Below, piece after piece: positions 12,410 to 39,346 of a stretch of 64,000 nucleotides of DNA. How positions within the stretch are numbered: the stretch's first letter is position 1; each line of letters begins with the position of its first letter. The notes under the pieces were generated by a model. That model was given only the letters and a program-made list of their open reading frames with translations, made no database searches and had not been told where the DNA came from. The DNA is taken from the IMG/VR virus record IMGVR_UViG_3300003323_000550, positions 2,319-66,318 of that record, one strand, 5' to 3'. Origin of the DNA: a virus. The position numbers and the translations under genes were made by a program.

Positions 12410-13426
12410 ATGGCGTCGCGCATTGCTGGTCGGCTGATCGGGCTCGCTGCCCTGCTCATCGCAGGGCTGTTGCCCACGGTCGCCCTTGGCGCGACGCTCT
12501 ACGTCACCGAGTTCGCATCGCCGATCTCGCAGGATCGCTCGCAAACCGCCCAGAATCTGCCGCAGCCGGCCATCACCTCGCAGACGGTGACGTTCAGCGG
12601 CGCATCGGTCCAATCGGCCGCCTTCAACGCCAACACCCACGGCATCCAGGTTTACTGCGATGCCGGTTGTTCGGTCGTGGTCGGTGCCAATCCGACAGCC
12701 ACCACGTCCAATCAGGTGCTCACCGCCAATCAGCCGCAGACCTTCACGGTGGTGCCCGGTCAGATCATCGCGGTGATCGCCAATTCGAGCGGTAATCCTG
12801 CCGCCGGAACGCCCACCGGCATCACCAGCGTGAACCTCAACCAGGTTGGTGGCGCATCATTTTCGCAGGGTCAGAAGGCGATGGCGGCCAGCCTCCCGGT
12901 GGTCATTGCCAGCGATCAAAGCGCAGTGTCGGTCTCGAATTTCAATGGCGCACTGCAGTCCGACGGTGACGGTATCTCGAACACCAACAGCACCGTGCAG
13001 GTGCTCAACTCGGCTGGCCTATCAGCGCACGGATATTCGATCTATCCGTGGGTCTACAACAACAGCACTTGGGACCGGATGCGCTCTGGCGGCGTCACCG
13101 GCATGGTTGGTGTTACGCCACAGGCGACACCGAGCGGCGGCGCCAGCTACACGCACATTGCGGCAGGTCAGGCGACCACGACGGTCAAATCGGGAGCCGG
13201 CACGATCTACGCCATCATCTTCAACACCAAGGCCACGGCGACCAACGTAACGACGCTCTACGACAACACGGCTGGCTCGGGTACGGTGATCGGCATCCCC
13301 GACGCGGTCAATGTGGCGGTAGGGCAAGCGATCAGTTACGGCCCGGTCGGACTGGCGTTTTCGACCGGCTTAACCATCGTCACGGCGACCGCCAATGGTA
13401 GCGACATGACCGTGGTCTACAAATGA
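12410..13426 (+). CDS. Signal-peptide-bearing beta-rich structural/decoration-like protein
   Basis: MASRIAGRLIGLAALLIAGLLPTVALG|ATLYVTEF. Mature part T/S/G/A-rich with CDAGC. Confidence 0.75.
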   Translation: MASRIAGRLIGLAALLIAGLLPTVALGATLYVTEFASPISQDRSQTAQNLPQPAITSQTVTFSGASVQSAAFNANTHGIQVYCDAGCSVVVGANPTATTSNQVLTANQPQTFTVVPGQIIAVIANSSGNPAAGTPTGITSVNLNQVGGASFSQGQKAMAASLPVVIASDQSAVSVSNFNGALQSDGDGISNTNSTVQVLNSAGLSAHGYSIYPWVYNNSTWDRMRSGGVTGMVGVTPQATPSGGASYTHIAAGQATTTVKSGAGTIYAIIFNTKATATNVTTLYDNTAGSGTVIGIPDAVNVAVGQAISYGPVGLAFSTGLTIVTATANGSDMTVVYK

Positions 13427-13446
13427 TCGGAAAAGGAACCGTATCC

Positions 13447-13830
13447 ATGAAAAATCTGCGCATTTTGTTGCTCGCGATCCTCTGCATCGGGATAGGCAGC
13501 ACCATCGGCGCCTTCGGTGCCTTTCAGTCGGGCGTACTGACGCTGACCGGCTTCCCCACCTTGGGACGCATTCCGATCGACAACGGTGGCCCCGAGTTCA
13601 CCAATTTGCGCGAGGCCGCCGGCACGGTGACGCTGAACGGCGCGACGCCGGTCACGGTCACCAACGCAAACATCACCACCGGCTCGGTCATCATCTTCAC
13701 CCTCAAAACGGTCGGCGGCACGGTGAGCCCGAATGCACCGAACGTTCTGACCATCACGCCAGGCACCGGTTTCACCGTCGGCGGCACGGCGCTGGATACG
13801 TCGACTTACAATTTTGTCATTCTGGGATGA
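13447..13830 (+). CDS. Signal-peptide-bearing small fibre/decoration-like protein
   Basis: MKNLRILLLAILCIGIGSTIGAFG|A. C-terminal AGTVTLNG..VTVTN..IT..S.I..T pattern typical of fibre-tip domains. Confidence 0.7.
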   Translation: MKNLRILLLAILCIGIGSTIGAFGAFQSGVLTLTGFPTLGRIPIDNGGPEFTNLREAAGTVTLNGATPVTVTNANITTGSVIIFTLKTVGGTVSPNAPNVLTITPGTGFTVGGTALDTSTYNFVILG

Positions 13831-14311
13831 ATCGGCGGTAGCCCTTATGAGCCCACGGACGAGCACCGCTGACCACCTGAAACATGGCTCCCTGATTGAG
13901 TCCGTGTTCCCGGCAGAACTTCGTGAGGTTAATACCGTGGATCACCGTTCCATCTGGGGCGATGACGGAAAAGGGCTTCTGTTTACGCTTCCGCATGGCC
14001 TCTTTGTTGGCATCGGAAGTAGTCTTCCCGAAGTACGGATGGGCCTCTCCCTTCGGAAAGCGATATGCACGAGAATTTCGACCCTTTGCGGCGCAGTCCT
14101 TCATATTGTCCGACTGCGTGCCCTGAAACAGATGCTCCAAGCGAACGCATCTCGTGTTATCGCAATGATGCAAAACGTAGAGCTTCGGATGCATCGGGCC
14201 GTAGACCTGCTCGGCGTAAGCCTTTCGATGTGGGCCATAGCCGGAGCCATTGACGGCTCCGGTCCAATTCCAGCATTCATCCGTCTTGTCGACGCGCGAC
14301 CAATCAACCAT
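13817..14311 (-). CDS. HNH homing endonuclease with NUMOD3-like motifs
   Basis: CWNWTG..NGSGYG, VLHHCDNTRCV...HLFQGTQSDNMKD, GEAHPYFGK. Antisense to the late operon with different codon usage. Confidence 0.9.
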   Translation of the reverse strand: MVDWSRVDKTDECWNWTGAVNGSGYGPHRKAYAEQVYGPMHPKLYVLHHCDNTRCVRLEHLFQGTQSDNMKDCAAKGRNSRAYRFPKGEAHPYFGKTTSDANKEAMRKRKQKPFSVIAPDGTVIHGINLTKFCREHGLNQGAMFQVVSGARPWAHKGYRRFIPE

Positions 14312-14384: not shown

Positions 14385-15677
14385 ATGAAACTCACTCATC
14401 TCGCTGGGCTCGCGATTGCGGCCCTTCTCACTCTGGGGGCGGCAGTTGCCGATGCCCAGACCCTACCGCAGGTCACCTCGATCAACCCCACGGATTTGAT
14501 CCAGGTCATTCCCCGCGGCGTGCCATCGGCCGGTAATCAGTATGCCAGCACCACACAGTTGGCCGGCTTCGGCATTTCAGCGGCGACCAAGATCAACGCT
14601 CTGATCGGCGGCGATGCCGGCACCAATCTGTTCCAGCGCGCCACGACCGGCTCGAGCGTCACGACCACCATCACCTATGGCGGCCCGGACCGCTGGGCCT
14701 ACTGGTCTGGCACGAATACGGCGATGACCGTCAGCCGCGACACCACGGCGGCCGATCTTCCCGCCAGCGGTAGCTACCAGGCCGCGTTCAAGATGGCGCG
14801 TACGTCCGGCCAGACCGGCGTCGTGCCGCTCTGCATGGTGCAGGAAGTCGAGTCGGTGAACTCCTACATGTTCCAAGGAGCCACCGCCGAACTCGATTTC
14901 TGGGCGACTGCGGGGGCCAATTTCTCGGCGGCAAATAGCGCGCTGACGGCCTACATCATCACCGGCACCGGCACCGATGAAGGCGTCTCCAAGATGGCCT
15001 TCGCCTTCAATGCGGGTGGAGGCGGCTCCAGCACTTGGACCGGTCAGGCGACGACCGTAGCCGATGTGGCGACGATCAGCACCGTGCCGACCCGGTTCGC
15101 GGCGGTCGGCGTGATCCCGGCGGGCACCACCGAGATCGGCGTGGTGTTCTGCTATACCCCGGTGGGGACGGCGGGCACCAATGACTATGTGGCGCTGACC
15201 GGCATTCAGTTGAGCCGCAATGCGGCGCTGACTTCGATCGCTTCGCAGACCACGGCGACCGACTGCTCGACGATCAACTGCTCGTCCTATGACCGGCGTC
15301 TGATCGGACAGGAAACCGCCCTGCAGCAGCGCTACTTCTACAAGATCGCGGAAAGCGCTGCGATTACGGTCATCGCTCCATGCGCCAACTCGACCACGTC
15401 ATTGGCGCTGTGTCAGGTGCCTTTCCCGACGACTATGCGAACGGCACCGACGATGACCTATACGACCGGCTTTGCGGCCAACACCACCACGGCCATGACC
15501 GCTGTGACGGCGTGCACGTCCCTCGGCACTTCCACGGCGGTTGCCTCGACCGCTGCAAACGTACAAGGTGTCTTGGTGGCGTGCGGATCATCGGCCGGCT
15601 TCGGCGCGGCTGGCACGACCAGCTTCCTATATTCCAACAACGGCTCAGGCGTCATCAACGCCAGCGCCGAACTCTGA
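14385..15677 (+). CDS. Signal-peptide-bearing fibre/carbohydrate-binding-like protein
   Basis: AAGGAG SD; MKLTHLAGLAIAALLTLGAAVADA|Q. N.LIGGD...FQR...YGGPDRW and LQQRYF...FPTTMRTAPT motifs of phage fibre domains. 8 Cys. Confidence 0.8.
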   Translation: MKLTHLAGLAIAALLTLGAAVADAQTLPQVTSINPTDLIQVIPRGVPSAGNQYASTTQLAGFGISAATKINALIGGDAGTNLFQRATTGSSVTTTITYGGPDRWAYWSGTNTAMTVSRDTTAADLPASGSYQAAFKMARTSGQTGVVPLCMVQEVESVNSYMFQGATAELDFWATAGANFSAANSALTAYIITGTGTDEGVSKMAFAFNAGGGGSSTWTGQATTVADVATISTVPTRFAAVGVIPAGTTEIGVVFCYTPVGTAGTNDYVALTGIQLSRNAALTSIASQTTATDCSTINCSSYDRRLIGQETALQQRYFYKIAESAAITVIAPCANSTTSLALCQVPFPTTMRTAPTMTYTTGFAANTTTAMTAVTACTSLGTSTAVASTAANVQGVLVACGSSAGFGAAGTTSFLYSNNGSGVINASAEL

Positions 15678-16805: not shown

Positions 16806-16812
16806 GGCCGCG

Positions 16813-17198: not shown

Positions 17199-19205
17199 AT
17201 GTCCCTGCTCCGCGGTGCCGTGCTCGCTTTCATCCTCGCGCTGGCCCCTGCGGCAGCCGAGGCGCAATCGACGGTGTTGCAGGCCGGTCCTTGGGCCTCC
17301 GGCCACGCGCCGATGTATACCAACTCGGGCGGCAGTCAGCCGATCGTGGTCGACAGCGGCACGGCGGGCGGTGGGGGCGCCGGCGTCGGGCTCAAGGAGC
17401 TCGGCATCACGGTGCGCGGCACCGGCACGCCGCCCTATGCCAATGCCGGCACCGGGCCGAACGGCGAGAACATCTGCGACTACGACGCGCCGACCACCAA
17501 CGCCACCGGCTACCACTATCTCTGCATGTCGCCCAATGCCCAGGGTGGCGGTCTCATCAGCTACGGCGCGGCGGGAGCGGCGACGACGTTGCCCCTCAAC
17601 TTCCTCGTTAACGGCACCAGCTACGAGTTCCCATTCTCGATCGGCGGTGTCGTCGGCCCTGCCTCGTCGGTGGTCAATGATGCGGCCTGCTGGAACAATA
17701 CCTCGGGCACGCTGCTCAAGGATTGCGGCGCGTTCGTTACCGTCGGCGGCAACAATACCTGGACTGGAACGAACAATTTTACCGGTCCCTTCCAGATCAA
17801 CTCGGTGCCGCAGACCTTCCCGCCCAGTGGCAACATCGTCGGCACCTCGGACAGCCAGACGCTGACCAATAAGTCGATCGGTGCCAGCCAGATCAACTCC
17901 GGCACCTTGCCCGCCACTGTGATGCCGGCGCTCACCGGCGATGTCACTTCATCGGCCGGCACGGTGTCGACCACGATCGCCAACGGTGTGGTCACCAATG
18001 CCAAACTGGCGACCGCAACGCAGAACACGGTCAAGGGCGCTGCAGTCTCGACGGCGGTGACCGACCTGGCCGTGCCATCGTGCTCGAGCGCCAACAATGC
18101 GTTGCAGTGGACCACCAATACCGGCTTCTCCTGCGCGACGGTCACGGCCTCGACCGCCGGGTTCGGCATCAATCTAAGTGGCGGCGTCTTTTCGATTTCC
18201 CAGACCCAGCCGCCTTACGGCTTCGATATGCCCGTCAACATGGGGCTGACGGCCAGTGTCGGCGGCTCCAACCTGACGATCAACGTCGTCGGCGCGAATG
18301 GATCGGCACCCAGTGCGTCCAACCCGGTGATGATCCCATTCCGGTCGACGACGTTGACCACGGGAACGCCTGTGTGGGTCGCGATCACGTCCGCCCAGTC
18401 GCTGGTAATTCCCTCGGGTGCCACTTTGGGGACGTCCAACGGCGTGCCGTTCAGGATCTGGCTGTTCGAGACTTACAGCTCGGGCACACCGCAGATCGGC
18501 GCGGCCATCTGCACGGTCTCGCCGACGACTTACCCTTGCTCATCGTGGGAAACCACCCGCCAGACATCGACCACGATCACCGGCCTGTCGACGTCGCCTG
18601 GAACCCTCTACACGACGACGGGTGTCTCGAACGATGCAGTTCGGATCATTGGCTATGCCGAGTATGCCAATGGCCTGACCACCGCCGGTCTCTATGCTTC
18701 GGTGCCAACAACGCTACAATTGATGGGACCGGGCGTCGCTCGTCCAGGCACAATCATCCAGAGCCCGCGCACCGATACCGGAGCCGTGGCCACGGGCACC
18801 ACAGTTATTCCGGCTGACGACACGATCCCTCAGAATACCGAAGGCGACCAGTATATGTCGCAGGCGATCACGCCTCGCAGCACCTGCAATTTGCTGCGCG
18901 TTTCGGTTCTGGCTGGCGCTCTCTCGAACACGACCGGCGCAGGCATCTTTATGACTGGAGCACTGTTTCAGGACAGCGTTGCCAGCGCATTGGCGGCTGG
19001 CGGCTTCGTTGAGACCAATGCGCAGTACAACTGGCCGATGACCATGAATGTGACCGTTCTGGCCAACACCGTCAGCACCACGACGTTCAAATTTAGGGCT
19101 GGAGCTTCGTCTGCCGGCACCACGACATTCAACGGTGTCAATGGTGTTCGGCGCTATGGCGGAGTCATCAATTCCTACATGCAAGTCGACGAGATCATGG
19201 GGTGA
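17199..19205 (+). CDS. Signal-peptide-bearing tail-fibre-like protein
   Basis: MSLLRGAVLAFILALAPAAAEA|Q. Fibre motifs QTLTNKS, ALTGDVT, VTNAKLA. Four close Cys pairs plus one further Cys. Confidence 0.8.
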   Translation: MSLLRGAVLAFILALAPAAAEAQSTVLQAGPWASGHAPMYTNSGGSQPIVVDSGTAGGGGAGVGLKELGITVRGTGTPPYANAGTGPNGENICDYDAPTTNATGYHYLCMSPNAQGGGLISYGAAGAATTLPLNFLVNGTSYEFPFSIGGVVGPASSVVNDAACWNNTSGTLLKDCGAFVTVGGNNTWTGTNNFTGPFQINSVPQTFPPSGNIVGTSDSQTLTNKSIGASQINSGTLPATVMPALTGDVTSSAGTVSTTIANGVVTNAKLATATQNTVKGAAVSTAVTDLAVPSCSSANNALQWTTNTGFSCATVTASTAGFGINLSGGVFSISQTQPPYGFDMPVNMGLTASVGGSNLTINVVGANGSAPSASNPVMIPFRSTTLTTGTPVWVAITSAQSLVIPSGATLGTSNGVPFRIWLFETYSSGTPQIGAAICTVSPTTYPCSSWETTRQTSTTITGLSTSPGTLYTTTGVSNDAVRIIGYAEYANGLTTAGLYASVPTTLQLMGPGVARPGTIIQSPRTDTGAVATGTTVIPADDTIPQNTEGDQYMSQAITPRSTCNLLRVSVLAGALSNTTGAGIFMTGALFQDSVASALAAGGFVETNAQYNWPMTMNVTVLANTVSTTTFKFRAGASSAGTTTFNGVNGVRRYGGVINSYMQVDEIMG

Positions 19206-19208: not shown

Positions 19209-19781
19209 GTGCCCGTCACCAGCAACGATATCGTCAATCAGGCGATCATGCTGATCGGCGACAATCAGACCGCCGTTATCGGAAACGCGCCGAACTTCGA
19301 TAATAGCGCTGCGGGAAAGGCGGCACAGCGACTCTATGCACCATGCGTCGCGACCGTCATGCGGGAGTTCGGTTGGGACGCCGCTCGGCGCTCGGTTGCT
19401 CTGACGCTTAGCGGCAATCCGGCGCCCCTGCCGGGCTGGATCGAATACCTCTATCCGACCAACGGTATCCAAGTCTGGACTCTGCGGCCGGCAGACGCCG
19501 ACATCGATCTCAACAATCCTTTCCCAATCAACTTCGTGGTAGCGAACGCCGTCGTCGCTGCGGTTCAGAAGAAGGTCATCCAGACGCCATTGGCCAACGC
19601 AGTCGCGGTCTACAACAACAACCCGACCGAGGATAACTGGGATCCACTGCTGCGTGAAGCCGTGGTGCGGCTGCTCGCCAGCGAGATGGCGGTGGCTCTC
19701 GCCGGAAAACCGACCACGGCCGAGTTGAACGTGAAAACCGGTGCCGCATTCGAGACCTTGGGTGAGGCCCGGCAAGACTGA
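19209..19781 (+). CDS. Tail adaptor (tail tubular protein A-like), paralogue 1
   Basis: DIVNQAIMLIG...W..ARR..L...W.EYLYP...WDPLLREAVV..LA.E.A..L. Confidence 0.8.
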   Translation: MPVTSNDIVNQAIMLIGDNQTAVIGNAPNFDNSAAGKAAQRLYAPCVATVMREFGWDAARRSVALTLSGNPAPLPGWIEYLYPTNGIQVWTLRPADADIDLNNPFPINFVVANAVVAAVQKKVIQTPLANAVAVYNNNPTEDNWDPLLREAVVRLLASEMAVALAGKPTTAELNVKTGAAFETLGEARQD

Positions 19782-20386
19782 TGGCAAACGTCCTCTCCAC
19801 AGCCGCCGACTTCGTCAATGCCGCCCTCATCAACATCGGCGTCAAACGCCAGATCGGTACGCTCTACGATGGGTCCGACGAGGCCAATGCGGCGCTGGCG
19901 GTCTACGGACAGACCCGTGATCTGCTGATCCGAACCGGCGACTGGCAGTTCGCGCAGCGCACGATCGCGCTCGAGCTCCTGAAGACCGCGCCCGCCTCCT
20001 ACTTGGGCCAGTGGACCAATGCCTATCCGCCGCAGCCATGGTTGTTCGAGTATGCGTATCCCGAGGACATGATCAAGTTGCGGATCGTCAAGCCGACGGC
20101 GGTGCTGTTTCCAGATTTCGACCCGCAGCCCAGTCCGTGGACCATCTACAATGACACCGGCTACAACCCGCCGCGGCGCACCATCCTGTCGAGCGTCCCA
20201 GACGCGCTTGGAGTTTTTGCGGGCCAGATCACCGATCCGCTGACATGGCCACCGGATTTCGGGCAGGCACTTATCGATGCGCTCGCGCTCGCCCTCACCA
20301 CGGCCCTCGCCAGCCCGCAGAGCATTCCGGTCGAGGCAGCGGAAAGTGCTAAAGATACCGCTGCCGCGAAAATGGAGCAGGGTTGA
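19781..20386 (+). CDS. Tail adaptor (tail tubular protein A-like), paralogue 2
   Basis: DFVNAALINIG...WQFAQR..L...WLFEYAYP.D...ITDP..WPPDF..AL...LA. Confidence 0.8.
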   Translation: MANVLSTAADFVNAALINIGVKRQIGTLYDGSDEANAALAVYGQTRDLLIRTGDWQFAQRTIALELLKTAPASYLGQWTNAYPPQPWLFEYAYPEDMIKLRIVKPTAVLFPDFDPQPSPWTIYNDTGYNPPRRTILSSVPDALGVFAGQITDPLTWPPDFGQALIDALALALTTALASPQSIPVEAAESAKDTAAAKMEQG

Positions 20387-21306
20387 TGGCAGGGGTGGTA
20401 GGAGGAGGGACGCCGACCGACGTCGTCAACCAGGCACTCGACGCTATCTTGTGGCCAACGCCGATCGGTGATCTGCAGGATGGTACTGAGCAGGCACAGG
20501 TCGCACTCCGGCACTATGGTCCTTGTCGCCAGCAACTGCTCCGCGCTGCGCACTGGAATTTCGCCCGCTCGGAAGCGCCAATGTTACTGCTCGCTGATCG
20601 GACAGGGCAGACCCCGGATGTGGGCACTCTGGTGCCGGGAGGCTGGACCTACGAGTATGCCTACCCACAAGATGCGGTGAAAGCGCGCTTTGTACCGTGG
20701 AACCGCGAGCAGCCATTCATCCCGGCTGGAAACGACCAGATTCCGACGACGGTGCCGCTGACGAGCGGACTGCAGAACCAGCCGGCTGCGTTCCCGGGGC
20801 AGGCGCGCGTCGCCCGCTTCCTCGAGACGGTCGACACCAACTATCCGGTGGACCTGGGACAGGTGAACTGGGATACCCCGAACGTAAGCCCGCAGGGACG
20901 CAGGGTGATCCTCACCAACGTGCAGGATGCTAAGCTGGTCTACACCCGGGACATCCTCTACCCGGCATTGTGGGATGCGCTGTTCCGCTCGGCGTTGGTT
21001 GCGTACCTCGCCGCCGAGCTCGCCGGGCCGATCTGGTCGAAGGCCGGCAAGGAGAAGTTCGGTCTGCAACTGCGCGACGACCAGAGCGCCATCGTCAAAG
21101 CCAAGGTCGTCGAGGCGCGCATGGCCGACGGCAATGAGGGTATCCATACCTCCGATATCCGGGTCGACTGGATGGACAACCGCCGCGCCGGCGGTTGGGG
21201 CAACAACTGGTTCGGCGCCGGTGGTGGCCCGGGCCTCGGGTACGGTGATGGCGTCACCGGCTACGGGTGGGACAGCTTGGCGTTGCCCGGCGGCGCGGTG
21301 TTCTGA
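20386..21306 (+). CDS. Tail adaptor (tail tubular protein A-like), paralogue 3
   Basis: DVVNQALDAI...LLRAAHWNFAR...WTYEYAYPQD...LVYT....WDALFRSALVAYLA...ARMADGNE. Confidence 0.8.
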   Translation: MAGVVGGGTPTDVVNQALDAILWPTPIGDLQDGTEQAQVALRHYGPCRQQLLRAAHWNFARSEAPMLLLADRTGQTPDVGTLVPGGWTYEYAYPQDAVKARFVPWNREQPFIPAGNDQIPTTVPLTSGLQNQPAAFPGQARVARFLETVDTNYPVDLGQVNWDTPNVSPQGRRVILTNVQDAKLVYTRDILYPALWDALFRSALVAYLAAELAGPIWSKAGKEKFGLQLRDDQSAIVKAKVVEARMADGNEGIHTSDIRVDWMDNRRAGGWGNNWFGAGGGPGLGYGDGVTGYGWDSLALPGGAVF

Positions 21307-24300
21307 TGGCGGTCCCGCTTCTGGACCTCGCATTTGCCACGGGCGAGCTCGCGCCGTCGCTCTATGGTCGCGTCGACATCGACCGGCAGCGCATCGCCTC
21401 GTCCACCTCGCGCAACATGGCGGTGGATTACCGCGGCGCCGCGATCAGCCGAGCCGGCACCAAGTTCGTGGGATTCTCGAAACAGACGGGTCGTGATTTC
21501 CCTCCGCGTCTGATCCCGTTCCAGTTCTCGATCAAGCAGGGCCTCGCGCTCGAGTTCGGACACCGCTACATGCGCGTGATCGCAGATGGCGGTTTCGTCA
21601 CCGAGACCCCGATCGCAATCGCTGGCGTGACGCAGGCGAATCCAGCCGTCATGAGCTTCGGCGCCAGCGGCGCTCAGACCGCGATCCCGGTGAACACGGG
21701 TGTGGTATTCTCCTATGCCCCAGGAGACCAAATCACACTGGCGGGCGGCGAAGCGCTGACCGAGGCAGTGCTGAGCGTCGACACCAGCCAACTCGTATCG
21801 ATCCTCACCAATTCGCGCGGTAGCGGCTATGCGCCAGGCGATACCATCACGCTTGGCGGTGGCACGGCGGCTCCGGCTGCGGTACTAACGGTAAATACTG
21901 TCGCGCCGGTTGCCGCCCGCGGCTTTATCGCGTTCAGCGCCAATCCGACCGATGGCAGCACGATCACGCTCAATGGCGTGGCGTGGACCTTCAAAACCAC
22001 GCCAGTCGGAGCAAACCAGACACAGATACAGGCGACCTTGGCCGGAACGCTTGTCCAGTTGGCGTCGGACCTCAATGCTTCGGCCAACGCCAGCCTTATG
22101 GTGGCCACCTACTCGGCAAATTCGACCGTGCTTTCGGTGGTCTATGACACCACCGGTGTCGGTGGAAATGCCTACACGCTGGTGGCTGGTGCAGGCAGCA
22201 ACGGAACCGTCAGCGGCGCGACGCTCACGGGAGGCACGGCCAGCGGCATCGACACCATTACGATCAGTAACGCGGGCATCTACACGGCGTTGCCGGGCGG
22301 TGGGGTGATGACGCAGTCTGCGACCTCGGGCGGCGGCACTGGAGCGACATTCCAGACGGCCGTATTCGGACCGCATGCAGTCTCGATCACCAATCCCGGT
22401 GTCTACACTACGGTGCCACCAAATCCGGTCGGGCAAGATTTCAGCACTGGCGTGGGACAGGGCGCGCAGTTCATCATGACATGGGCTGCGGTGCCTCCAT
22501 TCGCCAATGGTGATGAGGTGTTCATCACCGGGGTTCAGGGCATGACCGAATTGAACGGTAATGCCTATTTTCTGGCCGCTGTAACTCCGACCACTGCGGC
22601 GCTGGTCGACGTCTACGGCGTGCCGGTGGATTCCACCACCTTTCATGCCTACACCGGCGGCGGCACCGCAGCGCGCATCTACACACTGCCGACGATCTAC
22701 AACGAGGAGGACTTGCGCTGGATCAAGTTCGTCCAGTCGGCGGATGTGATGACCCTATGCTGCGTCAATCAGGACACGCAGACCGAATACCCGCCTCAGG
22801 ATCTCTCCCGCTTCAGCAACATCGACTGGTCGTTCTCCGATGTCGTGGCGGTCTCGTCGGTCGATCCTCCGGCATCGGTGGCGGCGGTCAGCAGCGGTGC
22901 CGGCACGACGTTCTATGAATACGTAGTCACGGCGATCTCACCGATCGACGGCAGCGAGAGTATCGCGTCATCGATCGCGGCAGTGGAAGGGGTTTCGATC
23001 TCGACCACGGCGGGCCAGAACACGATCTCGTGGTCGCCGGTCGAAGGGGTAAGCGAATACAACATCTACAAGGCCCAGCCCAGTTTGGGCTCGCCGGTGC
23101 CCGCTGGCTCGCTGTTCGGCTATATCGGCTCGGCCTACGGCACGCAGTTCATCGACAGCAATATCGTCCCCGCCTTCGCTCAGGTGCCGCCGCGGCACGT
23201 CAACCCATTCGCCCGGGGTGCGGTGATCGGCGTGTCCATCATGAGCGGCGGATCGGGCTACACCACCGCTTCGGCGGCGATCACCTCGGCCACCGGCTCA
23301 GGTGCCGTCCTCGAGGTCGTGGTGCAGAACGGCGCGGTGGTCTCGGTGGTTATCGATGATGCGGGTGCCAACTACCAGAATGGTGACACGATCATCATCA
23401 ACGGCACTGGCACTGGCGCGACCGCAGCACTGCTGATCGGCGCGCAGGATGGCACCTATCCCTCGGTCCCGGGCTATTTCCAGCAGCGTCGGGCCTACGC
23501 GGATTCGCTCAATCAACCCGACACCTACGATATGTCGCAGCCGGGAGCCTATACCAATTTCGACCGTCGCATTCCGCCGATCGACACCGACGCGCTCACC
23601 GGCTCGCCATGGGGCGTGCAGGTCAACGGCATCCAGTTCATGGTCCAGAGCCAGGCGGGATTGGTCATGTTCACTGGCCTGTCGTCATGGCTGCTGAACG
23701 GGGCCGGCAGCTTCGCCACCAATTCCGGCCCGATCACGCCGTCGAGCCAGGATGCGAATCCGCAGCCCTTCACCGGCTGCTCGCCAACGGTGCCGCCGAT
23801 CAAGATCAACAACGACATTATCTATGTCACGGCGATCGCCGGGCTCTACTACGACCTGCCTTACCAGTTGAACCTTTCCGAGCCGCTGGACCTCACCCAG
23901 TATTCGACCCACTTGTTCACCAACCACAGCGTGCTCGAGCACGCTTGGTGCGAGCAGCCCAACAAAATCGTCTGGGTGGTCCGCGACGACGGCATCATGC
24001 TCAGCCTGACCTACCTCAAGGCCGAGAACATCGCTGGTTGGGCGCGGCATGACACGAACGGACAGTTCTGGTCGGTGTGCTCGATCATCGAGCCGCCGGT
24101 GGATGCGCTCTATCTGGCGACCCAGCGGTTCCCAGGAGGCAAGAACGCCTACATGATCGAACGCATGGACAACCGCCTGTGGGATCAGGTGGAGAACTGC
24201 TGGTGCGTGGATTGCGCACTGGCGCTGCCGCAGCCAACCCCGAGCGCCACGCTGACGGCCGACACGCCGACCGGCCTCGGCGCCCTGACCGGCGCCACCG

Positions 24301-25265
24301 TACTGACCGGCGGTAGCGGGTATTCGGCCTCGACGCAGGTGCAGGTCGAGGATGAGGTTGGGGAGGGTTCGGGAGCGGACTTCACCGTCACGATCGATGG
24401 AAGCGGCGCGATCACCGCGCTCAATCTGGTCACGCCCGGATCCGGCTACATCTACCCCAAGATTTCGTTCCTTGACCCGGAAGGAACGGGGCAGGACGCG
24501 ACGGCACATGCTGGGCTCGATAACTCAGCCACTTTCACCGCTTCGGCGGCGGTGTTCGCCGTGGGCGACGTCGGCAAGGTCATCCGCATGGGAAACGGCG
24601 TCGCGACCATTACCGGCTTCACCGATACCCAGACCGTCACGGCGCAGATTACCTCACCGATCACCAAGCTCCGGCCCAATACCGACGACATCGTGCTGCC
24701 GCAGGGTCCAGGCGATTGGACGATGACGCGCCCAATCACGCTGGTCGATGGCCTCGGACATCTGGCAGGCGAGATGGTGACCGGCCTCGCAGATGGCGTC
24801 GTGATCACTCCACAGGTCGTGACTTCCGATGGCACCATCACCTTGGATGCGCCAGCGAGCTCGATCGTCGTCGGCCTCGGCTTTCGTGCACAATTACAGT
24901 CGGTCTATGCCGATGCGGGTTCGCCGACCATTCAGGGCCAGCGCAAGAAGGTCGCTGGCGTCAGTGCGCTGCTCGAGGCGTCACGCGATATCCAGGTCGG
25001 CAGCAATCAGGTGGACGGTTCGACGCTCAATCCACCGCAGATCGCGCCGCCGTGGTCCGACCTCGATCCCTACGACAATCTGCTGCGCGCCCCCTATAAC
25101 AGCATCACCGTTCCGCTCTATAACGGCTACGTCCGCACCACCGTGCAGGGCGGATTCCAGAAGCCGGGCCAGATCGCGTTGCAGCAGGATTTCCCCCTCC
25201 CGATGAATGTGCTGAGCCTCGTGCCGGAACTCGACCCCGGAGACCAGCCGGAGAACAATGGATGA
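21306..25265 (+). CDS. Tail nozzle (tail tubular protein B-like) with inserted beta domains
   Basis: FATGELAPSLYGRVD, RLIPFQFS, LEFG..YMR, QSADV, YP....FQQR, GWARH. Contains an FCCH-like GDEVFITGVQGMTELNG segment. Confidence 0.9.
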   Translation: MAVPLLDLAFATGELAPSLYGRVDIDRQRIASSTSRNMAVDYRGAAISRAGTKFVGFSKQTGRDFPPRLIPFQFSIKQGLALEFGHRYMRVIADGGFVTETPIAIAGVTQANPAVMSFGASGAQTAIPVNTGVVFSYAPGDQITLAGGEALTEAVLSVDTSQLVSILTNSRGSGYAPGDTITLGGGTAAPAAVLTVNTVAPVAARGFIAFSANPTDGSTITLNGVAWTFKTTPVGANQTQIQATLAGTLVQLASDLNASANASLMVATYSANSTVLSVVYDTTGVGGNAYTLVAGAGSNGTVSGATLTGGTASGIDTITISNAGIYTALPGGGVMTQSATSGGGTGATFQTAVFGPHAVSITNPGVYTTVPPNPVGQDFSTGVGQGAQFIMTWAAVPPFANGDEVFITGVQGMTELNGNAYFLAAVTPTTAALVDVYGVPVDSTTFHAYTGGGTAARIYTLPTIYNEEDLRWIKFVQSADVMTLCCVNQDTQTEYPPQDLSRFSNIDWSFSDVVAVSSVDPPASVAAVSSGAGTTFYEYVVTAISPIDGSESIASSIAAVEGVSISTTAGQNTISWSPVEGVSEYNIYKAQPSLGSPVPAGSLFGYIGSAYGTQFIDSNIVPAFAQVPPRHVNPFARGAVIGVSIMSGGSGYTTASAAITSATGSGAVLEVVVQNGAVVSVVIDDAGANYQNGDTIIINGTGTGATAALLIGAQDGTYPSVPGYFQQRRAYADSLNQPDTYDMSQPGAYTNFDRRIPPIDTDALTGSPWGVQVNGIQFMVQSQAGLVMFTGLSSWLLNGAGSFATNSGPITPSSQDANPQPFTGCSPTVPPIKINNDIIYVTAIAGLYYDLPYQLNLSEPLDLTQYSTHLFTNHSVLEHAWCEQPNKIVWVVRDDGIMLSLTYLKAENIAGWARHDTNGQFWSVCSIIEPPVDALYLATQRFPGGKNAYMIERMDNRLWDQVENCWCVDCALALPQPTPSATLTADTPTGLGALTGATVLTGGSGYSASTQVQVEDEVGEGSGADFTVTIDGSGAITALNLVTPGSGYIYPKISFLDPEGTGQDATAHAGLDNSATFTASAAVFAVGDVGKVIRMGNGVATITGFTDTQTVTAQITSPITKLRPNTDDIVLPQGPGDWTMTRPITLVDGLGHLAGEMVTGLADGVVITPQVVTSDGTITLDAPASSIVVGLGFRAQLQSVYADAGSPTIQGQRKKVAGVSALLEASRDIQVGSNQVDGSTLNPPQIAPPWSDLDPYDNLLRAPYNSITVPLYNGYVRTTVQGGFQKPGQIALQQDFPLPMNVLSLVPELDPGDQPENNG

Positions 25266-35408: not shown

Positions 35409-36131
35409 ATGCCCGTCCGCCAGCCGAACACGGTGACTCCACTCAAGGGCGGGCCATTCTACGGTAATCCGGCGGGCCTCAATTACGAAACCATCCCCTG
35501 TGTCGCCGAGACCATCGTGGATGCAGGCGCCACCTATATCGAACTCTCACTACCCAAGCTGATCGAATGGTGGGGTTCGCCGCTCACGCAGCAGATTTTC
35601 AGTTTTGTGGCTGATGCCGGAGGAACCGGCAACATCTCCGCGCTGGTTGCGGGTCTTGGTCCCTACAAGATTTACCTGAACAATGCTCAAGCTGCCGGTC
35701 CAGATATCGCGGCAGGGGACTTCATCTTTCTGGCGTACGATCAGGATCTGGATGCAGGCAATGGCGGCCTGCACATGCTCAACTGGTCGCAGCTTGGCGG
35801 TGGACCATCTCAAGGCACGACGCAGATCGTCACCGGTGCCGGAACGGTCACGGTGCTTGCCACCGACACGCTGATCGCAATCAAGAAAGCGGCCCCAAGC
35901 GCTACGCCGATCAATCTGCCCGACGTCGCCAGCCGCGGCGGCCATGGCGTGCAGATCACGGATTTTTCTGACAACGGCGGGCCGATCACGATCACGCCTG
36001 CGGTCGGAGAAACCATCATGGGCTCGGCCTCGATCGTGCTCAACTCGAACGGCACTGGCCCCTTGGGCACCGGCGGTGCCATCACACTCTATCCGAACAC
36101 CGACCTCGATGGGTGGTATATCGCGCCATGA
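35409..36131 (+). CDS. Short fibre or fibre-anchor-like protein without signal peptide
   Basis: [13 protein letters not shown] and INLP...ITITP..GETI.G...W patterns of fibre-associated domains. Confidence 0.6.
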
Positions 36132-38458
36132 AAAAGCTCCTCGCCCTTTTCGCCATTTTGCTGTTTGTCGCTCCGGCACTGGCGCAGCAGGTGCCCGTTC
36201 ACACGATTCCGATCGGCAAGGGGGCGGGGCAGCAGGGCTTCAACAACACCGGCACTGGCACGGCGGGACAGGTTCTCACCAGCAATGGTGCCGCATCTGA
36301 TCCGACCTGGCAGTCCAGTGGTGGCGGATCGGGCACCGTCACTTCGGTCTCGGTAGTCTCGGCCAACGGCCTCGCGGGCTCGGTCGCCAACGCCACCACG
36401 ACACCGGCGATTACGCTCTCGACGTCGGTCACGGGCATCCTGTCGGGCAACGGCACGGCGATCTCGGCCGCCTCGACCACGGGCTCCGGCGCTGTGGTGC
36501 TGGCCACCAGCCCGACGCTGGTCACGCCAGCGCTGGGAACGCCCGCCTCGGGCGTGGCGACCAACCTGACGGGGCTACCGCTCACCACGGGCACCACCGG
36601 CACGCTTCCGGTCAACAAGGGCGGCACCAACCTCACCAGCGGCATCAGTGGGGGCGTGCTGGGCTTTACTGGTGCGGGCACCATCGCTTCATCGGCGGCG
36701 CTCGGTGCCAGTGAGATCGTGATCGGCGGTGGCGCGGGTGCGACGCCGACAAGTCTAGGCACGCTGGGGACCACTACGACGGTGCTGCACGGCAATGCGG
36801 CCGGTGCGCCGACCTTCGGCGCAGTGAACCTCGCGACGGAGGTCACGGGCAATCTGCCGGTCACCAATCTCGACTCCGGCACATCGGCTTCCAGTTCGAC
36901 GTTCTGGCGCGGCGATGGAACCTGGGCGACGCCGGCCGGCGGCGGCACGGTCACCCACACGGGCAACCTGACGGCCAATTCGCTGGTCCTGGGCAACGGT
37001 AGCGCGGACACCATCGTTGCAGCGGGCCTCACCACCGATGGAATCAGCGTCATCAACTTGGGAACAGCGGGAGCCACAGTTGGAGGTGTCGTCTTCTCCA
37101 ATTCGACCTCGGGCAGCATCACACTCAATCCAGCCACGGGTGCGCTGGGAAGTTCGGTTTTGACGCTACCTGCCGCGACAGACACGCTGGTCGGAAAAGC
37201 CACGACCGACACGCTGACCAACAAGACCTTCGACACAGCCGGTTCGGGCAATAGTTTCTCAATCAATGGCGTCGCAGTCACGGCCAATACCGGAACGGGC
37301 GCCGTGGCTCGGGCCGCCAGCCCAACCTTCACTACCCCGACCCTGGGCGTAGCCTCGGCGACCTCGATCAACAAAGTCGCCATCACTGCTCCGGCTTCGA
37401 GCGCAACCCTGACAATTGCCGATGGCAAGACACTGACCGCCAACAATTCGATCACGCTGGGGGGCACCGACAGCACCACCATGACGTTTCCGTCGACCAG
37501 CGCGACGATCGCACGCACCGATGCGGGGCAGACCTTCACCGGAACCCAGACGTTCAGCACTGCGATTGCGGCCACCAGCGGAGGCACTGCGCAATCGACC
37601 TACACCACTGGCGATATTCTCTATGCCTCGGGCGCGAACACGCTATCCAAGCTCGCCGTGGGCTCAAGCAACCAGATCCTGACGGTCAGCGGCGGTGTCC
37701 CGTCCTGGCAGAATGCCCCAGCCGGTTCGGGCACTGTGACCAACACGGGGACACTTACGGCCAATCGGATCATCATCGGCAACGGAACGACCGATGTCAC
37801 GACTGCGGCAGGTCTTGTGACCGATGGTGCCAGCGTCATCACCCTAGGCGTTGCCGGCTCGTCGGTCGGCGGTGTGGCCTTCAACAATGCCACTTCGGGC
37901 AGCATTACGCTGCAGCCGACAACCGGCGCATTGGGCTCGTCGGTCCTTACCCTTCCGGCCGCCACAGATACCTTGGTGGGCAAGGCGACCACCGACACTC
38001 TGACCAACAAGTCGATCAGCGGCACGACCAACACGTTCACCAATATTCCCTATTCCGGGCTCGCTTCAGCGGCCATCGCCACGGCGGGTAATTATCAGGC
38101 CAATGCTGCGAGCACTCTGCTCGGTCCGAATGCGGTATGGTCTGCGGCCAGCACAGTCGCCTTGACCGATGCCGCGACCATTGCGGTGGACATGTCGACG
38201 GGCATCAATTTCACCGTCACTCTGGGGGGCAACCGTACTCTCGGTGCTCCCTCCAATACCAAAGTCGGCCAGACCGGGGTCATCCGCGTTGCGCAGGATG
38301 GAACCGGCTCACGGACCCTGGCCTACAACAGCGCCTACAAGTTTCCGGGCGGCACAGCTTGCACCTTGACCACCACCGCGAGCCATGTGGATTACCTGTT
38401 CTATTGGGTCTTTTCGAGCACAGAAGTCCTCGTCAACTGCGTCCTCAACGTGAGCTAA
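36128..38458 (+). CDS. Signal-peptide-bearing long tail-fibre-like protein
   Basis: [19 protein letters not shown]|[29 protein letters not shown] repeats. C-terminal TLGGNRTL..P....GQ....QDGTGSRTL domain. Confidence 0.85.
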
Positions 38459-39346
38459 ATGAAGCGTCTCGGGCTGCTTTTCGTCACTCTCGCCTTTCTG
38501 TGCGCTGGTCTTGTGCCGTCTTCGGCGATGCTGCCTGGTATCATTCAGGGCGGCGGATTTCAGCCGATCCAGATCACCTACCTTGTGGTGGCTGGCGGTG
38601 GCGGCGGCGGGCGTTTCGGTGGCGGCGGCGGCGCCGGCGGGATGCTCACCGGATCGGACGTCATCTACCCCGGATCATCAGCCAGCGTCACCGTGGGCGG
38701 TGGTGGCAACGGATCAACGTCGCGTGGCTCAAATGGCGCCAACGGGTCGAACAGTGTTTTCCTGACACATACGGCAACCGGAGGCGGTGGCGGCAACTCC
38801 GGCAACGTCGCTGGTGCCGGCAATGGTGGGTCCGGCGGCGGCCTCGGCAATAATAACGGCACATCCTCCGGCACCGGCGGCACCGGAACTGGAGGCCAGG
38901 GCAACAATGGAGGCGGTAACAGCGCGGCGGCGGTCGTGTGCGGTGGTGGTGGCGGTGCCTCGGCCATCGGTGGAACGGGTAACGATACTGGCTCCGTGGG
39001 AGGCAATGGCGGCAATGGTACGGCTTCAAGCATCAGCGGATCGTCGGTAACTTATGCGGGCGGCGGCGGTGGATGTGCTCTCACGACTGCTGGCACTGGT
39101 GGTGCTGGTGGAGGCGGTGCTGGTGCCACTGGAACTTCAAATGGCACTGCAGGGACCGCCAATACAGGCGGTGGAGGCGGCGGCTCGCGAGATAATGCTG
39201 GCGGCGGTGGCAACGGCGGCAACGGCGGAAGCGGGATCGTCATCGTCAGATATCTCGGTTCCGCTCGATGCACTGGCGGCACGATCACATCGTCTGGAGG
39301 TGCCACCATTCACTCGTTCACCAGCAACGGGACGCTGGCCTGCTGA
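38459..39346 (+). CDS. Signal-peptide-bearing glycine-rich domain protein
   Basis: MKRLGLLFVTLAFLCAGLVPSSA|M. YLVVAGGGGG...GGGGAGG, ANTGGGGGG, GGSGIVIVRY, IHSFTSNG of phage Gly-rich fibre-tip domains. Confidence 0.8.
   Translation: MKRLGLLFVTLAFLCAGLVPSSAMLPGIIQGGGFQPIQITYLVVAGGGGGGRFGGGGGAGGMLTGSDVIYPGSSASVTVGGGGNGSTSRGSNGANGSNSVFLTHTATGGGGGNSGNVAGAGNGGSGGGLGNNNGTSSGTGGTGTGGQGNNGGGNSAAAVVCGGGGGASAIGGTGNDTGSVGGNGGNGTASSISGSSVTYAGGGGGCALTTAGTGGAGGGGAGATGTSNGTAGTANTGGGGGGSRDNAGGGGNGGNGGSGIVIVRYLGSARCTGGTITSSGGATIHSFTSNGTLAC

What the first reader, a model, noticed from the sequence alone, without database searches (positions are those of the whole stretch)
12410..39346. Six virion-appendage genes carry Sec signal peptides: a possible exported, periplasm-folded fibre system
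Seen: six ORFs embedded in the head/tail operon (12410, 13447, 14385, 17199, 36128, 38459) begin with basic residue(s), a hydrophobic core and a small-residue cleavage site (ALG|A, AFG|A, ADA|Q, AEA|Q, ALA|Q, SSA|M). The mature parts are T/S/G/A-rich and carry fibre or decoration motifs. Core parts (portal, MCP, cement, adaptors, nozzle) have no such leader. Established: tailed phages assemble in the cytoplasm and their fibres normally lack signal peptides. Inference: these appendages are exported, mature in the periplasm and dock onto virions at or after lysis. Alternatively they act on the infected cell surface as adhesins or receptor blockers. Either would be a non-canonical morphogenesis route.
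Basis: partly seen in the sequence, partly recalled or inferred. Interest (0 to 1): 0.9.

Follow-up and report, generated by a model that had tools for sequence, protein, structure and literature searches.

The report
Phage fibre proteins carrying export signals
A 66-kb short-tailed phage of soil Rhizobium-type bacteria, like a very large uncultured group of relatives, puts ordinary bacterial secretion signals and paired cysteines on its fibre-like host-recognition proteins, so these parts very probably fold outside the cytoplasm in which tailed-phage particles are built.

Summary
Six late ORFs (12410, 13447, 14385, 17199, 36128, 38459) start with classical n/h/c signal peptides; portal, capsid, cement, adaptors, nozzle and internal proteins do not.

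The leaders are conserved features. In the 17199 family, 148 of 150 distant representatives and 66 of 67 viral loci keep one, almost always cut before Gln. The 14385 family keeps it in 12 of 12.

Two families are mixed. Relatives of 12410 lack the leader in 10 of 13 loci and start exactly at the predicted cleavage site. Relatives of 13447 lack it in 4 of 5. The 38459 leader is untested.

Export is supported indirectly. Mature cysteine counts are even in 113 of 120. Two cysteine pairs are always present or lost together. Within families, leaders go with paired cysteines.

The proteins look like receptor-binding fibres: a conserved N-domain, swapped tips, and a gene beside the tail adaptors. Whether they join the particle at lysis is not shown. 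Relatives also hold leaderless spike-like proteins. One complex prediction gave no verdict.

Verdict: export likely (about 0.85); docking onto virions at lysis about 0.35-0.4. This scan has noted the same pattern before on other DNA. I found no paper describing it.

The parts
12410..13426 (+). 338-aa protein. Leader is residues 1-27 (nt 12410-12490), predicted cut ALG|ATLY. It has an N-terminal beta-sandwich (28-124), a T/S/G-rich linker and a C-terminal beta-sandwich (245-338). C83-x3-C87 is the only cysteine pair.
   Evidence: All 24 of 24 database relatives with the ATLYISEF-type N-terminus carry a leader, the C-x3-C pair and an even Cys count. In IMG/VR loci 3 relatives have a leader. Ten are about 100-aa leaderless proteins that begin M/V + ATLYISEF-type and lack C-x3-C.
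13447..13830 (+). 127-aa protein. Leader is residues 1-24 (nt 13447-13518), predicted cut AFG|A. The C-terminal small beta domain hits K1-lyase_C. The mature part has no Cys.
   Evidence: (PF24146, E 9e-10). Only 1 of 5 related loci hits has a leader.
14385..15677 (+). 430-aa protein. Leader is residues 1-24 (nt 14385-14456), predicted cut ADA|Q. The mature part has 8 Cys. It fits no known family.
   Evidence: (AAGGAG ribosome site). Relatives: 12 of 12 have a leader and 12 of 12 have an even Cys count.
17199..19205 (+). 668-aa fibre-like protein. Leader is residues 1-22 (nt 17199-17264), predicted cut AEA|Q. A conserved N-domain (about 23-180) holds the pairs C93-C109 and C164-C176. Then come a poorly modelled shaft and a confident C-terminal beta-rich head (340-668) with a TNF-like knob.
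36128..38458 (+). 776-aa repeat fibre. Leader is residues 1-19 (nt 36128-36184), predicted cut ALA|Q. The gene sits where T7-like phages keep the tail fibre, after the internal virion proteins. The C-terminus hits phrog_4757. Two Cys lie near the C-terminus.
   Evidence: The repeat body is shared with many leaderless tail fibres. The 4 database proteins that share its N-terminal module (P0261, P0268, P0331, P0337) all have a leader.
38459..39346 (+). 295-aa glycine-rich protein (Gly_rich_2). Putative leader is residues 1-23 (nt 38459-38527), predicted cut SSA|M. The mature part has 4 Cys.
   Evidence: PF21722, E 3.6e-20; phrog_2295. The leader is not backed by homologues, and an alternative ATG lies at codon 24.
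35409..36131 (+). Leaderless 240-aa protein whose stop overlaps the start of 36128. It is a possible fibre adaptor. No family fits.
19209..21306 (+). Three paralogous leaderless tail adaptor proteins (phrog_394), directly downstream of the 17199 fibre gene.
   Evidence: The same order (fibre, then adaptors 1, 2, 3) shows in the related loci listed and.
21267..25265 (+). 1332-aa leaderless nozzle-type tail protein (phrog_376) with extra inserted domains. It is an alternative candidate for host contact.
5759..11473 (+). Leaderless head genes: portal (Head-tail_con), scaffold region, epsilon15/BPP-1-type major capsid protein (GP7) and the 185-aa cement-position protein.
   Evidence: No hit of the MCP or cement families showed a leader (0 of 33 each).

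Best explanation
The window is a complete 66-kb epsilon15/BPP-1-type podovirus of Hyphomicrobiales (Rhizobium-type) hosts.

Step 1 is shown indirectly, and I rate it about 0.85 for 17199, 14385, 36128 and 12410. It is lower for 13447 and weakest for 38459. The fibre-like late proteins are made as precursors with Sec-type, signal-peptidase-I-cleavable leaders. They cross the inner membrane unfolded, are cut (mostly before Gln) and fold in the periplasm, where their paired cysteines become disulfides.

Step 2 is inferred, and I rate it about 0.4 given step 1. These proteins are the phage's host-recognition and decoration appendages. Heads with portal, adaptors, nozzle and internal proteins are finished in the cytoplasm without them. 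When the holin breaches the inner membrane, the two pools mix inside the still-enclosed cell. The conserved mature N-domains then dock on the particle. Fibreless T7 particles accepting fibres in vitro, and decoration proteins binding finished capsids, are recalled precedents.

The likely benefit is a set of disulfide-stabilised, secreted-type binding modules (TNF-like knob, pectate-lyase-like helix) that cannot fold in a reducing cytoplasm.
For: Leaders are conserved as a physico-chemical feature while their sequence drifts.
- 17199 family: 115 of 120 relatives pass my rule. Three more show a visible leader and 2 start inside the domain.
- In IMG/VR loci 66 of 67 hits have a leader and 1 is cut off.
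- Of the 150 best among 1795 profile hits, 146 pass and 2 more have a leader without K/R. The +1 residue is Gln in 144 of 146.
- Mean column conservation is 0.45 in the leader against 0.73 in residues 23-180.
- 14385 family: 12 of 12 have a leader.
- Homology of the mature proteins starts at the predicted cleavage site, within query positions 1-4 for 12410 and 14385.
- Leaderless 12410 relatives begin exactly there.

Signs of an oxidising compartment.
- Mature Cys counts are even in 113 of 120 and in 129 of 146.
- C93/C109 are both present in 120 of 120. In a second set 28 have both, 2 have neither and 0 have one alone.
- C164/C176: 102 have both, 18 have neither and 0 have one alone.
- Among homologues with at least one Cys, leader-bearing ones are 32 even to 1 odd, against 7 even to 21 odd for leaderless ones (12410 set). 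In the 36128 set the figures are 9 to 2 against 22 to 44.

Fibre or receptor-binding character.
- The N-domain is always N-terminal, on proteins of 267-1560 aa.
- C-termini carry Pectate_lyase_3, Peptidase_S74 or Gly_rich domains.
- The window's own tip is TNF-like (Foldseek E 2e-8).
- The gene lies directly before the adaptors, and some relatives hold tandem copies.
- In the window no leaderless fibre-like protein was found apart from 35409 and the enlarged nozzle.
Against: - No trained signal-peptide predictor and no experiment were available; my rule is home-made and gives some false positives (1 of 134 and 2 of 11 control hits).
- Related sequences are not independent, so the parity p-values overstate the case.
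- Disulfides in leaderless virion proteins can also form after release. I saw this only in the search listing, in papers on cross-linked tails.
- Two families are mostly leaderless in relatives: 12410 in 10 of 13 and 13447 in 4 of 5.
- Relatives hold leaderless spike-like proteins in the same block. These include a 696-aa beta-helix-like protein in G002 and a weak Mtd-like 307-aa protein in G011. Six of the 22 large non-11480 ORFs in seven genomes are leaderless. A conventional cytoplasmic receptor-binding protein is therefore possible in the clade.
- The 1332-aa nozzle could bind the host itself.
- The window's own 17199 protein has 9 Cys, an odd count.
- No cultured relative exists, hence no virion proteome.
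- No precedent in tailed phages was found in print.
Confidence: 0.38

Rival explanations
1. The proteins are exported but work off the particle. They are secreted late in infection. In or beyond the envelope they would bind or degrade surface polysaccharide, mask receptors on the dying cell and its debris, exclude superinfecting phages, or act as cell-surface adhesins like the Bdellovibrio MAT fibres. The virion would then recognise its host through the enlarged nozzle or, in relatives, through leaderless spikes.
For: - The same evidence for export as above applies.
- MAT fibres have the same build (signal peptide, conserved beta-rich domain of about 130 aa, variable tips including TNF-like and S74) and sit on a cell surface, not a virion (passages of PMC10769870).
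- Relatives do have leaderless spike-like proteins.
- The nozzle is about 500 aa longer than usual and carries extra domains.
- From recall, phages are known to export lipoproteins and outer-membrane proteins encoded beside fibre genes (T5 Llp, lambda Lom).
Against: - The window holds no leaderless twin with the same binding tip, which a decoy or receptor blocker would be expected to have.
- The window's 17199 tip is a binding knob, not an enzyme.
- The N-domain is conserved at about the level of the tail adaptors across hosts of 47-63% G+C. That fits a phage-encoded partner better than a host one.
- The gene is fixed next to the adaptors.
- The phage encodes no recognisable route across the outer membrane.
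Confidence: 0.3
2. The leaders do not lead to export of the functional pool. They might act as transient inner-membrane tethers, as assembly pro-peptides removed by a phage or host protease, or they might be bypassed. In that case the fibres would assemble in the cytoplasm as in all studied tailed phages, and the cysteines would oxidise only after release.
For: - Cytoplasmic assembly is the rule for every studied tailed phage (established knowledge).
- Matrishin et al. 2023 read signal-peptide predictions on Porphyromonas phage capsid proteins as prohead-protease substrates (passages).
- Leaderless 12410- and 13447-type proteins evidently work in relatives.
- 38459 has an alternative start at the mature N-terminus.
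- Post-release disulfides are described for leaderless tails (listing only).
Against: - All three signal-peptide regions and an A-x-A/G cut site are kept over 1795 diverged clusters while the sequence drifts. That is hard to explain without signal peptidase and Sec.
- Paired cysteines track the leader within families.
- Leaderless structural proteins of this phage hold few cysteines. Eight of 14 have none, and the two largest internal proteins have 0 in 3044 residues.
Confidence: 0.1
3. Artefact: the starts are mis-called, or hydrophobic N-termini arose by chance in a G+C-rich genome.
For: - High-G+C DNA gives many Ala/Leu/Val-rich frames. Of the 1734 start/ORF combinations, 94 pass my loose rule.
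- The true start of 38459 is uncertain.
Against: - The leaders are conserved in relatives of 47-63% G+C.
- Ribosome-binding sites lie before the leader starts.
- Control families show 0 of 33 (MCP), 0 of 33 (cement), 0 of 104 and 0 of 120 (two adaptors).
Confidence: 0.02

Closest known systems
Podovirus tail fibres and tailspikes with an N-terminal particle-binding domain (T7 gp17, P22 gp9, epsilon15 gp20; names recalled)
   Same: Both have a conserved N-terminal domain followed by exchangeable distal modules (beta-helix lyase-like, S74 chaperone, knob). The genes lie next to adaptor and nozzle genes or after the internal virion proteins. Some genomes hold tandem copies with different tips.
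   Different: The known ones have no signal peptide and assemble in the cytoplasm. Here no Pfam or PHROG family of a known anchor domain matches, and no solved structure matches by sequence.
Bdellovibrio bacteriovorus mosaic adhesive trimer (MAT) fibres (Caulton et al. 2024, PMC10769870; passages read)
   Same: [quoted passage not shown] The tips include TNF-like domains with disulfides and S74 chaperone domains.
   Different: MAT genes are chromosomal genes of a predatory bacterium and the fibres sit on its cell surface. Here the genes lie inside a phage structural operon. Sequence homology of the two N-domains was not tested.
Signal-peptide-bearing genes of Porphyromonas gingivalis phages (Matrishin et al. 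2023, PMC10367356; passages read)
   Same: These are phage-encoded proteins with predicted Sec signal peptides, several of them cleaved before Gln.
   Different: That paper names capsid proteins, spanins and five unknown genes, in Bacteroidota phages. In the passages I read, tail fibres are not named and no periplasmic route for virion parts is proposed. Its Supplementary Data 4 could not be opened.
Epsilon15/BPP-1-type podoviruses
   Same: The capsid protein fits Pfam GP7 (E 1.6e-95), the portal fits Head-tail_con, and the order of adaptor, nozzle and internal virion proteins matches.
   Different: The best cultured capsid identity is about 41%. The genome is about 20 kb larger, with three adaptor paralogues and a block of signal-peptide proteins between cement and adaptors.

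Membership tests
Sec-type (signal peptidase I) signal peptide | Positively charged n-region, uncharged hydrophobic h-region of about 7-15 residues, and small residues at -3 and -1 of a c-region; total length about 18-30 | tested here: met
   All six meet it: lengths 19-27, K/R in the n-region and A/G/S at -1. AlphaFold2 models an N-terminal helix at 2-14 (17199) and 2-18 (12410).
Sec-type (signal peptidase I) signal peptide | Score of a trained predictor (SignalP, DeepSig) | not testable with these tools
Sec-type (signal peptidase I) signal peptide | The feature is kept in homologues while its sequence drifts | tested here: inconclusive
   Met for 17199 (148 of 150; 66 of 67), for 14385 (12 of 12) and for the 36128 N-module (4 of 4). 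Not met for 12410 in viral loci (3 of 13) or for 13447 (1 of 5). No data for 38459.
Sec-type (signal peptidase I) signal peptide | No lipobox (so not a lipoprotein signal) and no twin-arginine motif | tested here: met
   None of the six leaders has L-x-x-C at the cut or an RR motif. The separate small ORF 2169-2465 does have RR.
Phage receptor-binding fibre or tailspike | Conserved N-terminal domain with exchangeable C-terminal binding or enzymatic modules | tested here: met
   17199 family: the N-domain sits at residues of about 5-180 in all 150 best hits, on proteins of 267-1560 aa, with PF12708, PF13884 and PF21722 tips. 12410 family: N-domain plus variable C-termini.
Phage receptor-binding fibre or tailspike | Homology to a described particle-binding domain or a solved fibre | tested here: not met
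   No Pfam or PHROG hit covers the N-domains. The PDB sequence search found nothing for 17199 and only non-phage hits at E 0.02 or weaker for the other three. Only the tip resembles a TNF-like domain by fold.
Phage receptor-binding fibre or tailspike | Physical presence on the virion | not testable with these tools
   No cultured phage carries these domains.
Bdellovibrio MAT fibre superfamily | [quoted passage not shown] | tested here: met
   The architecture of the 17199 family matches the description in PMC10769870.
Bdellovibrio MAT fibre superfamily | Sequence homology of the N-domain, and display on the producer's cell surface | not tested
The nearest clusters by language-model features are all viral.
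Epsilon15/BPP-1-type podovirus | GP7-type major capsid protein, T7-type portal, and adaptor, nozzle and internal virion proteins in order | tested here: met
   PF20911 E 1.6e-95; PF12236 E 1.2e-107; phrog_394 three times; phrog_376, 308, 418 and 6651.
Gly_rich_2 domain proteins (for 38459) | Pfam PF21722 above its gathering score | tested here: met
   73.4 bits against a cut-off of 24.3.

The most novel reading that the evidence does not exclude
A tailed phage builds its particle in two compartments. Head, tail hub and internal proteins are made in the cytoplasm. The receptor-binding fibres, and some decoration-type proteins, are sent through Sec, trimmed by signal peptidase (often leaving N-terminal Gln), oxidised by the host's Dsb system in the periplasm, and snapped onto fibreless particles only in the moments after the holin opens the inner membrane. 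This would hold for a clade of at least 1795 protein clusters spanning hosts of 47-63% G+C.
Probability: 0.33. Interest if true: 0.9.

Novelty: new variant of a known kind. Interest (0 to 1): 0.72.

Why it matters
All textbook tailed-phage morphogenesis is cytoplasmic. If receptor-binding proteins of a large, widespread soil and water phage group mature in the periplasm, several things follow.
- Assembly has a step that happens at or after lysis.
- Host Sec, signal peptidase and Dsb become phage dependency factors.
- Fibre prediction, phage engineering and heterologous expression of such receptor-binding proteins would need periplasmic expression.
- Lysis timing would be tied to virion completion.

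Even the modest reading is useful: a huge family of exported, disulfide-bonded fibre-like phage proteins gives annotators a rule and defines a family without a name. It is directly testable, because a cultured strain (Rhizobium sp. BK313) carries a prophage with the whole syntenic module.

Tried and rejected
- Complex prediction of the three adaptor paralogues with residues 23-180 of the 17199 protein (own alignments A4-A6, A2) gave no verdict (score 0.00, controls not run). I count it neither for nor against binding.
- Phage-collection searches with the 17199 N-part, the 36128 N-part, 14385 and 38459 found nothing. 12410 gave only two partial hits. So no cultured relative or virion proteome could be used.
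- The PDB sequence search found nothing for 17199. For 12410, 14385 and 36128 it gave only unrelated hits at E 0.02-0.8, such as antibody chains, lactonases and GroEL.
- The fold of 12410 gave only weak matches to nucleoplasmin-core-like jelly rolls (E about 5e-3). I draw nothing from it.
- The search for relatives of 35409 in viral contigs found none. 38459 has no match in 10 complete relatives.
- I first wrote in my notes that the relative G002 has only a leader-bearing fibre. The block census showed a leaderless 696-aa beta-helix-like protein there, so I withdrew that claim.
- My first whole-genome census failed on the three lower-G+C relatives, and its loosened rule produced false positives such as the cement protein. 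I replaced it with the block census. I then corrected three rows by hand (G002 501 aa, G012 648 aa, G014 637 aa) whose leaders are visible.
- A putative lipobox ORF at 44004-44516 reads like non-coding, arginine-rich noise opposite another ORF. I dropped it.
- The atlas search of the N-domain gave only unnamed viral clusters, with Mtd_N-type clusters below 0.9. It is a lead only.
- Seven literature searches found no paper on signal peptides on tailed-phage fibres.

Full report
WHAT THE WINDOW IS. The window is bases 2319-66318 of a 66,318-bp IMG/VR virus record with direct terminal repeats, rated 100% complete. G+C is about 0.63.

The late operon reads as follows:
- a T7-type portal at 5759 (PF12236, E 1.2e-107);
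- an epsilon15/BPP-1-type major capsid protein at 9839 (PF20911, E 1.6e-95);
- a 185-aa protein in the cement position, and a 306-aa protein at 11480;
- a block that holds four of the six flagged genes;
- three paralogous adaptors at 19209-21306 (phrog_394);
- a 1332-aa nozzle-type tail protein (phrog_376);
- internal virion proteins up to 35398 (phrog_308, 418, 6651, and a transglycosylase domain);
- then 35409, 36128, 38459 and an endolysin.

The best capsid identity to any cultured phage is about 41%. DNA similarity to cultured phages is limited to the terminase gene of Xanthomonas phages.

THE OBSERVATION. All six N-termini are as described.

My own n/h/c rule is not a trained predictor. 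It was applied to 1734 start/ORF combinations in six frames and places the six among the top scorers. At real gene starts it adds only a small Tat-like ORF (2169-2465) and lysis-region membrane proteins. Head, adaptor and internal proteins have no leader, and the nozzle's listed start gets only a weak score. Mature parts are 46-69% T+S+G+A and 3-8% charged, against 28-40% and 10-27% in core proteins. The one caveat is 38459, which has an ATG exactly at the predicted +1 position and no homologues to arbitrate.

ARE THE LEADERS CONSERVED?

17199 family:
- A search with residues 1-200 returned 314 proteins, of which the best 120 were listed.
- Counting the query, 115 of those 120 pass my rule. 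Three of the misses show a visible leader just under threshold, and 2 start inside the conserved domain.
- In 67 IMG/VR loci found with a family alignment, 66 hits have an upstream in-frame leader and 1 is cut by the contig end.
- A profile of the N-domain found 1795 representatives at E up to 1e-3 among 1.84 billion (570 at up to 1e-30). Of the best 150, 146 pass and 2 more have a leader without K/R. One has a long N-terminal extension and one starts inside the domain. The residue after the cut is Gln in 144 of 146.
- The leader evolves faster than the protein: mean column conservation is 0.45 against 0.73.

14385 family: 12 of 12 have a leader.

36128:
- Its repeats are shared with many ordinary leaderless tail fibres; 106 of the 120 listed are leaderless by my rule.
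- The four proteins that share its N-terminal module all have a leader.

12410:
- All 24 database proteins with the same mature N-terminus have a leader.
- In the viral loci only 3 of 13 do. The other 10 are proteins of about 100 aa that begin Met or Val plus the mature N-terminus, exactly at the predicted cleavage site.

13447: 1 of 5 have a leader.

Controls run through the same pipeline, counted as hits with paralogue cross-hits included:
- MCP 0 of 33;
- cement 0 of 33;
- adaptors 0 of 104, 1 of 134 and 0 of 120;
- nozzle 2 of 11.

ARE THE PROTEINS REALLY EXPORTED? No tool can show this, but the cysteines speak.
- Mature members of the 17199 family have a median of 10 Cys. The count is even in 113 of 120 and in 129 of 146 distant representatives.
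- C93 and C109 are both present in 120 of 120. In the viral set 28 have both, 2 have lost both and none has lost one.
- For C164 and C176, 102 have both, 18 have neither and none has one alone.
- The 14385 family has an even count in 12 of 12.
- The contrast within families is the most telling. Take the homologue sets returned for 12410 and 36128 and count only proteins with at least one Cys. Leader-bearing ones are 32 even to 1 odd and 9 to 2. Leaderless ones are 7 to 21 and 22 to 44.
- In the 12410 family the C-x3-C pair is present in 27 of 27 leader-bearing members and in 0 of 10 leaderless ones. Of those ten, five have C-x4-C, four have a single Cys and one has another pattern. Several of the ten are near-identical to each other.
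- The leaderless core proteins of this phage are almost free of cysteine.

Two caveats apply. Relatives are not independent, and disulfides can also form in leaderless virions after release (listing only). The window's own 17199 protein has 9 Cys.

WHAT KIND OF PROTEINS ARE THEY?
- The 17199 N-domain is always N-terminal, on proteins of 267-1560 aa.
- Its partners at the C-terminus include Pectate_lyase_3, Peptidase_S74 and glycine-rich domains.
- The AlphaFold2 model (mean pLDDT 75) has a leader helix, a moderately confident N-domain, a poorly modelled shaft and a confident C-terminal head. Its tip matches the TNF-like domain of Pgp3 (Foldseek E 2e-8).
- The gene lies directly upstream of the adaptors in the related loci, and some genomes have two tandem copies.
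- 12410 models as two beta-sandwiches joined by a disordered linker, with only weak fold matches.
- None of the six hits a solved structure by sequence (for four of them).

This is the modular build of receptor-binding proteins. It is also the build of the Bdellovibrio MAT fibres, which are cell-surface adhesins.

HOSTS AND RANGE.
- The N-domain occurs in an integrated prophage of Rhizobium sp. BK313, which carries the whole syntenic module from terminase to internal proteins.
- It also occurs on phage-sized contigs binned with Hyphomicrobiales and Salinisphaerales genomes.
- Complete relatives range from 47.5% to 63% G+C, so the clade is not confined to one host group.

WHAT SPEAKS AGAINST A FULLY EXPORTED APPENDAGE SYSTEM. 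I made a census of the block between cement and first adaptor in the window and six complete relatives.
- The script flagged 13 of 28 ORFs of at least 250 aa as leader-bearing.
- Three more are family members whose leaders the strict rule or the start choice missed.
- Six of the remainder are the leaderless 11480-type protein.
- Six more are leaderless proteins of unknown role. One is a 696-aa protein in G002 with a spike-like N-terminal motif, directly after the leaderless 102-aa 12410-type protein. One is a 307-aa protein in G011 with a weak Mtd-second-domain hit. One is a 285-aa protein in G007 that hits a scaffold family.
- The 35409-39346 module is absent from G002 and G014, which go straight to lysis genes. 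38459 is absent from 10 complete relatives.

In the window itself I found no leaderless fibre-like protein other than 35409 and the enlarged nozzle.

MECHANISM. I commit to the following.

Step 1 is supported and I rate it about 0.85. It covers Sec export, cleavage and periplasmic oxidative folding of at least the 17199, 14385, 36128 and 12410 proteins.

Step 2 is inferred and I rate it about 0.4 given step 1. It proposes docking of the mature N-domains onto cytoplasm-built, fibreless particles once the holin merges the compartments. The arguments for it are these:
- The N-domain is conserved at about the level of the adaptors across diverse hosts.
- The gene keeps a fixed position beside the tail genes.
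- Some genomes hold tandem copies with different tips.
- The window lacks any leaderless twin that a decoy would need.
- The 12410-type domain also exists as a leaderless protein in relatives, which shows it can work with a cytoplasm-built particle.

The single complex prediction gave no verdict and is not used.

The main rival is an off-particle role (about 0.3). The MAT parallel, the leaderless spike-like proteins of relatives and the large nozzle keep it alive.

COMPARISON AND NOVELTY. Seven literature searches found no description of signal peptides on tailed-phage fibres. Passages of three papers were read (PMC3556154, PMC10769870, PMC10367356). The nearest in print are Matrishin et al. 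2023 and the MAT fibres.
- Matrishin et al. 2023 report signal peptides on capsid, spanin and unknown genes of Porphyromonas phages, with cleavage before Gln.
- The MAT fibres share the build of signal peptide, conserved domain and variable tip, but belong to a bacterium.

Earlier notes of this scan report the same pattern on other phage genomes. Later checks there kept the observation and priced the virion-docking reading near 10%. I treat those as leads, and they tempered my odds.

I file this as a new variant of a known kind: receptor-binding fibres with an export route. It is not a new kind, because the decisive step is unproven.

LIMITS.
- No trained signal-peptide predictor was available.
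- Supplements were closed.
- Counts on homologues include related, non-independent sequences.
- Control counts are per BLAST hit, not per gene.

Noticed in passing
window 2169-2465 (+): A 98-aa ORF just upstream of the terminase genes starts with a twin-arginine-type leader (RR, hydrophobic core, V-R-A cut). The Pfam TAT_signal hit is weak (E 0.0045, below the cut-off). Locus L006 has a match to the leader part only (56% over residues 2-33).
   Followed up: partly
17199-family proteins (P0007-P0474) and window 14457, 17265, 36185: The residue after the predicted cut is Gln in 144 of 146 distant family members and in three of the six window proteins. This recalls the 'Q rule' described for Bacteroidota signal peptidase substrates (PMC10367356) and suggests N-terminal pyroglutamate, here in phages of Proteobacteria.
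   Followed up: partly
L008:685-2130 (-), relative G002: Between the fibre gene and the adaptors, the relative G002 holds a 473-aa protein with 12 Cys. Its leader contains K-R-R-S-F, a Tat-like motif. Tat exports folded proteins.
   Followed up: no
L008:6015-8102 (-), relative G002 (P0475): A leaderless 696-aa protein with a tailspike-like N-terminal motif and 7 Cys starts directly after the stop of the leaderless 102-aa 12410-type protein. It looks like a split, cytoplasmic version of what is a fused, leader-bearing protein in other relatives (L039 567 aa, L043 530 aa mature).
   Followed up: partly
window 13831-14384: This stretch of about 550 bases inside the tightly packed late operon holds only a doubtful ORF (13814-14362). 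Its distal part (from the ATG at 14039) has G+C at third positions of 0.59 and an odd sequence, and it fits no family. It may be a non-coding gap or a regulatory region before the 14385 gene.
   Followed up: no
window 19209-21306; G011 (L093): Three tandem paralogues of the tail adaptor (phrog_394) are conserved across the clade. G011 appears to have a fourth, a second 19781-type copy.
   Followed up: partly
window 16678-17178 (+): A 166-aa late protein hits Pfam Gp10-like 'Major coat protein-like' (PF21628, E 3.2e-12) and phrog_825. It may be a second decoration or cement-type protein just before the fibre gene.
   Followed up: no
window 43228-43322 (+): ARAGORN reports a tRNA-like gene with an undetermined anticodon loop (tRNA-???).
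   Followed up: no
L080 8115-10970; G008 and G014 blocks: Several relatives carry two tandem 17199-family genes with the same N-domain and different C-termini, each with its own leader. This is the pattern of phages with two receptor-binding proteins.
   Followed up: partly
relatives G008 (47.5% G+C), G011 (52%), G012 (55.5%): The same structural module and leader-bearing fibre family occur in phage genomes whose G+C differs by 15 points from the window. The clade therefore spans quite different hosts.
   Followed up: no
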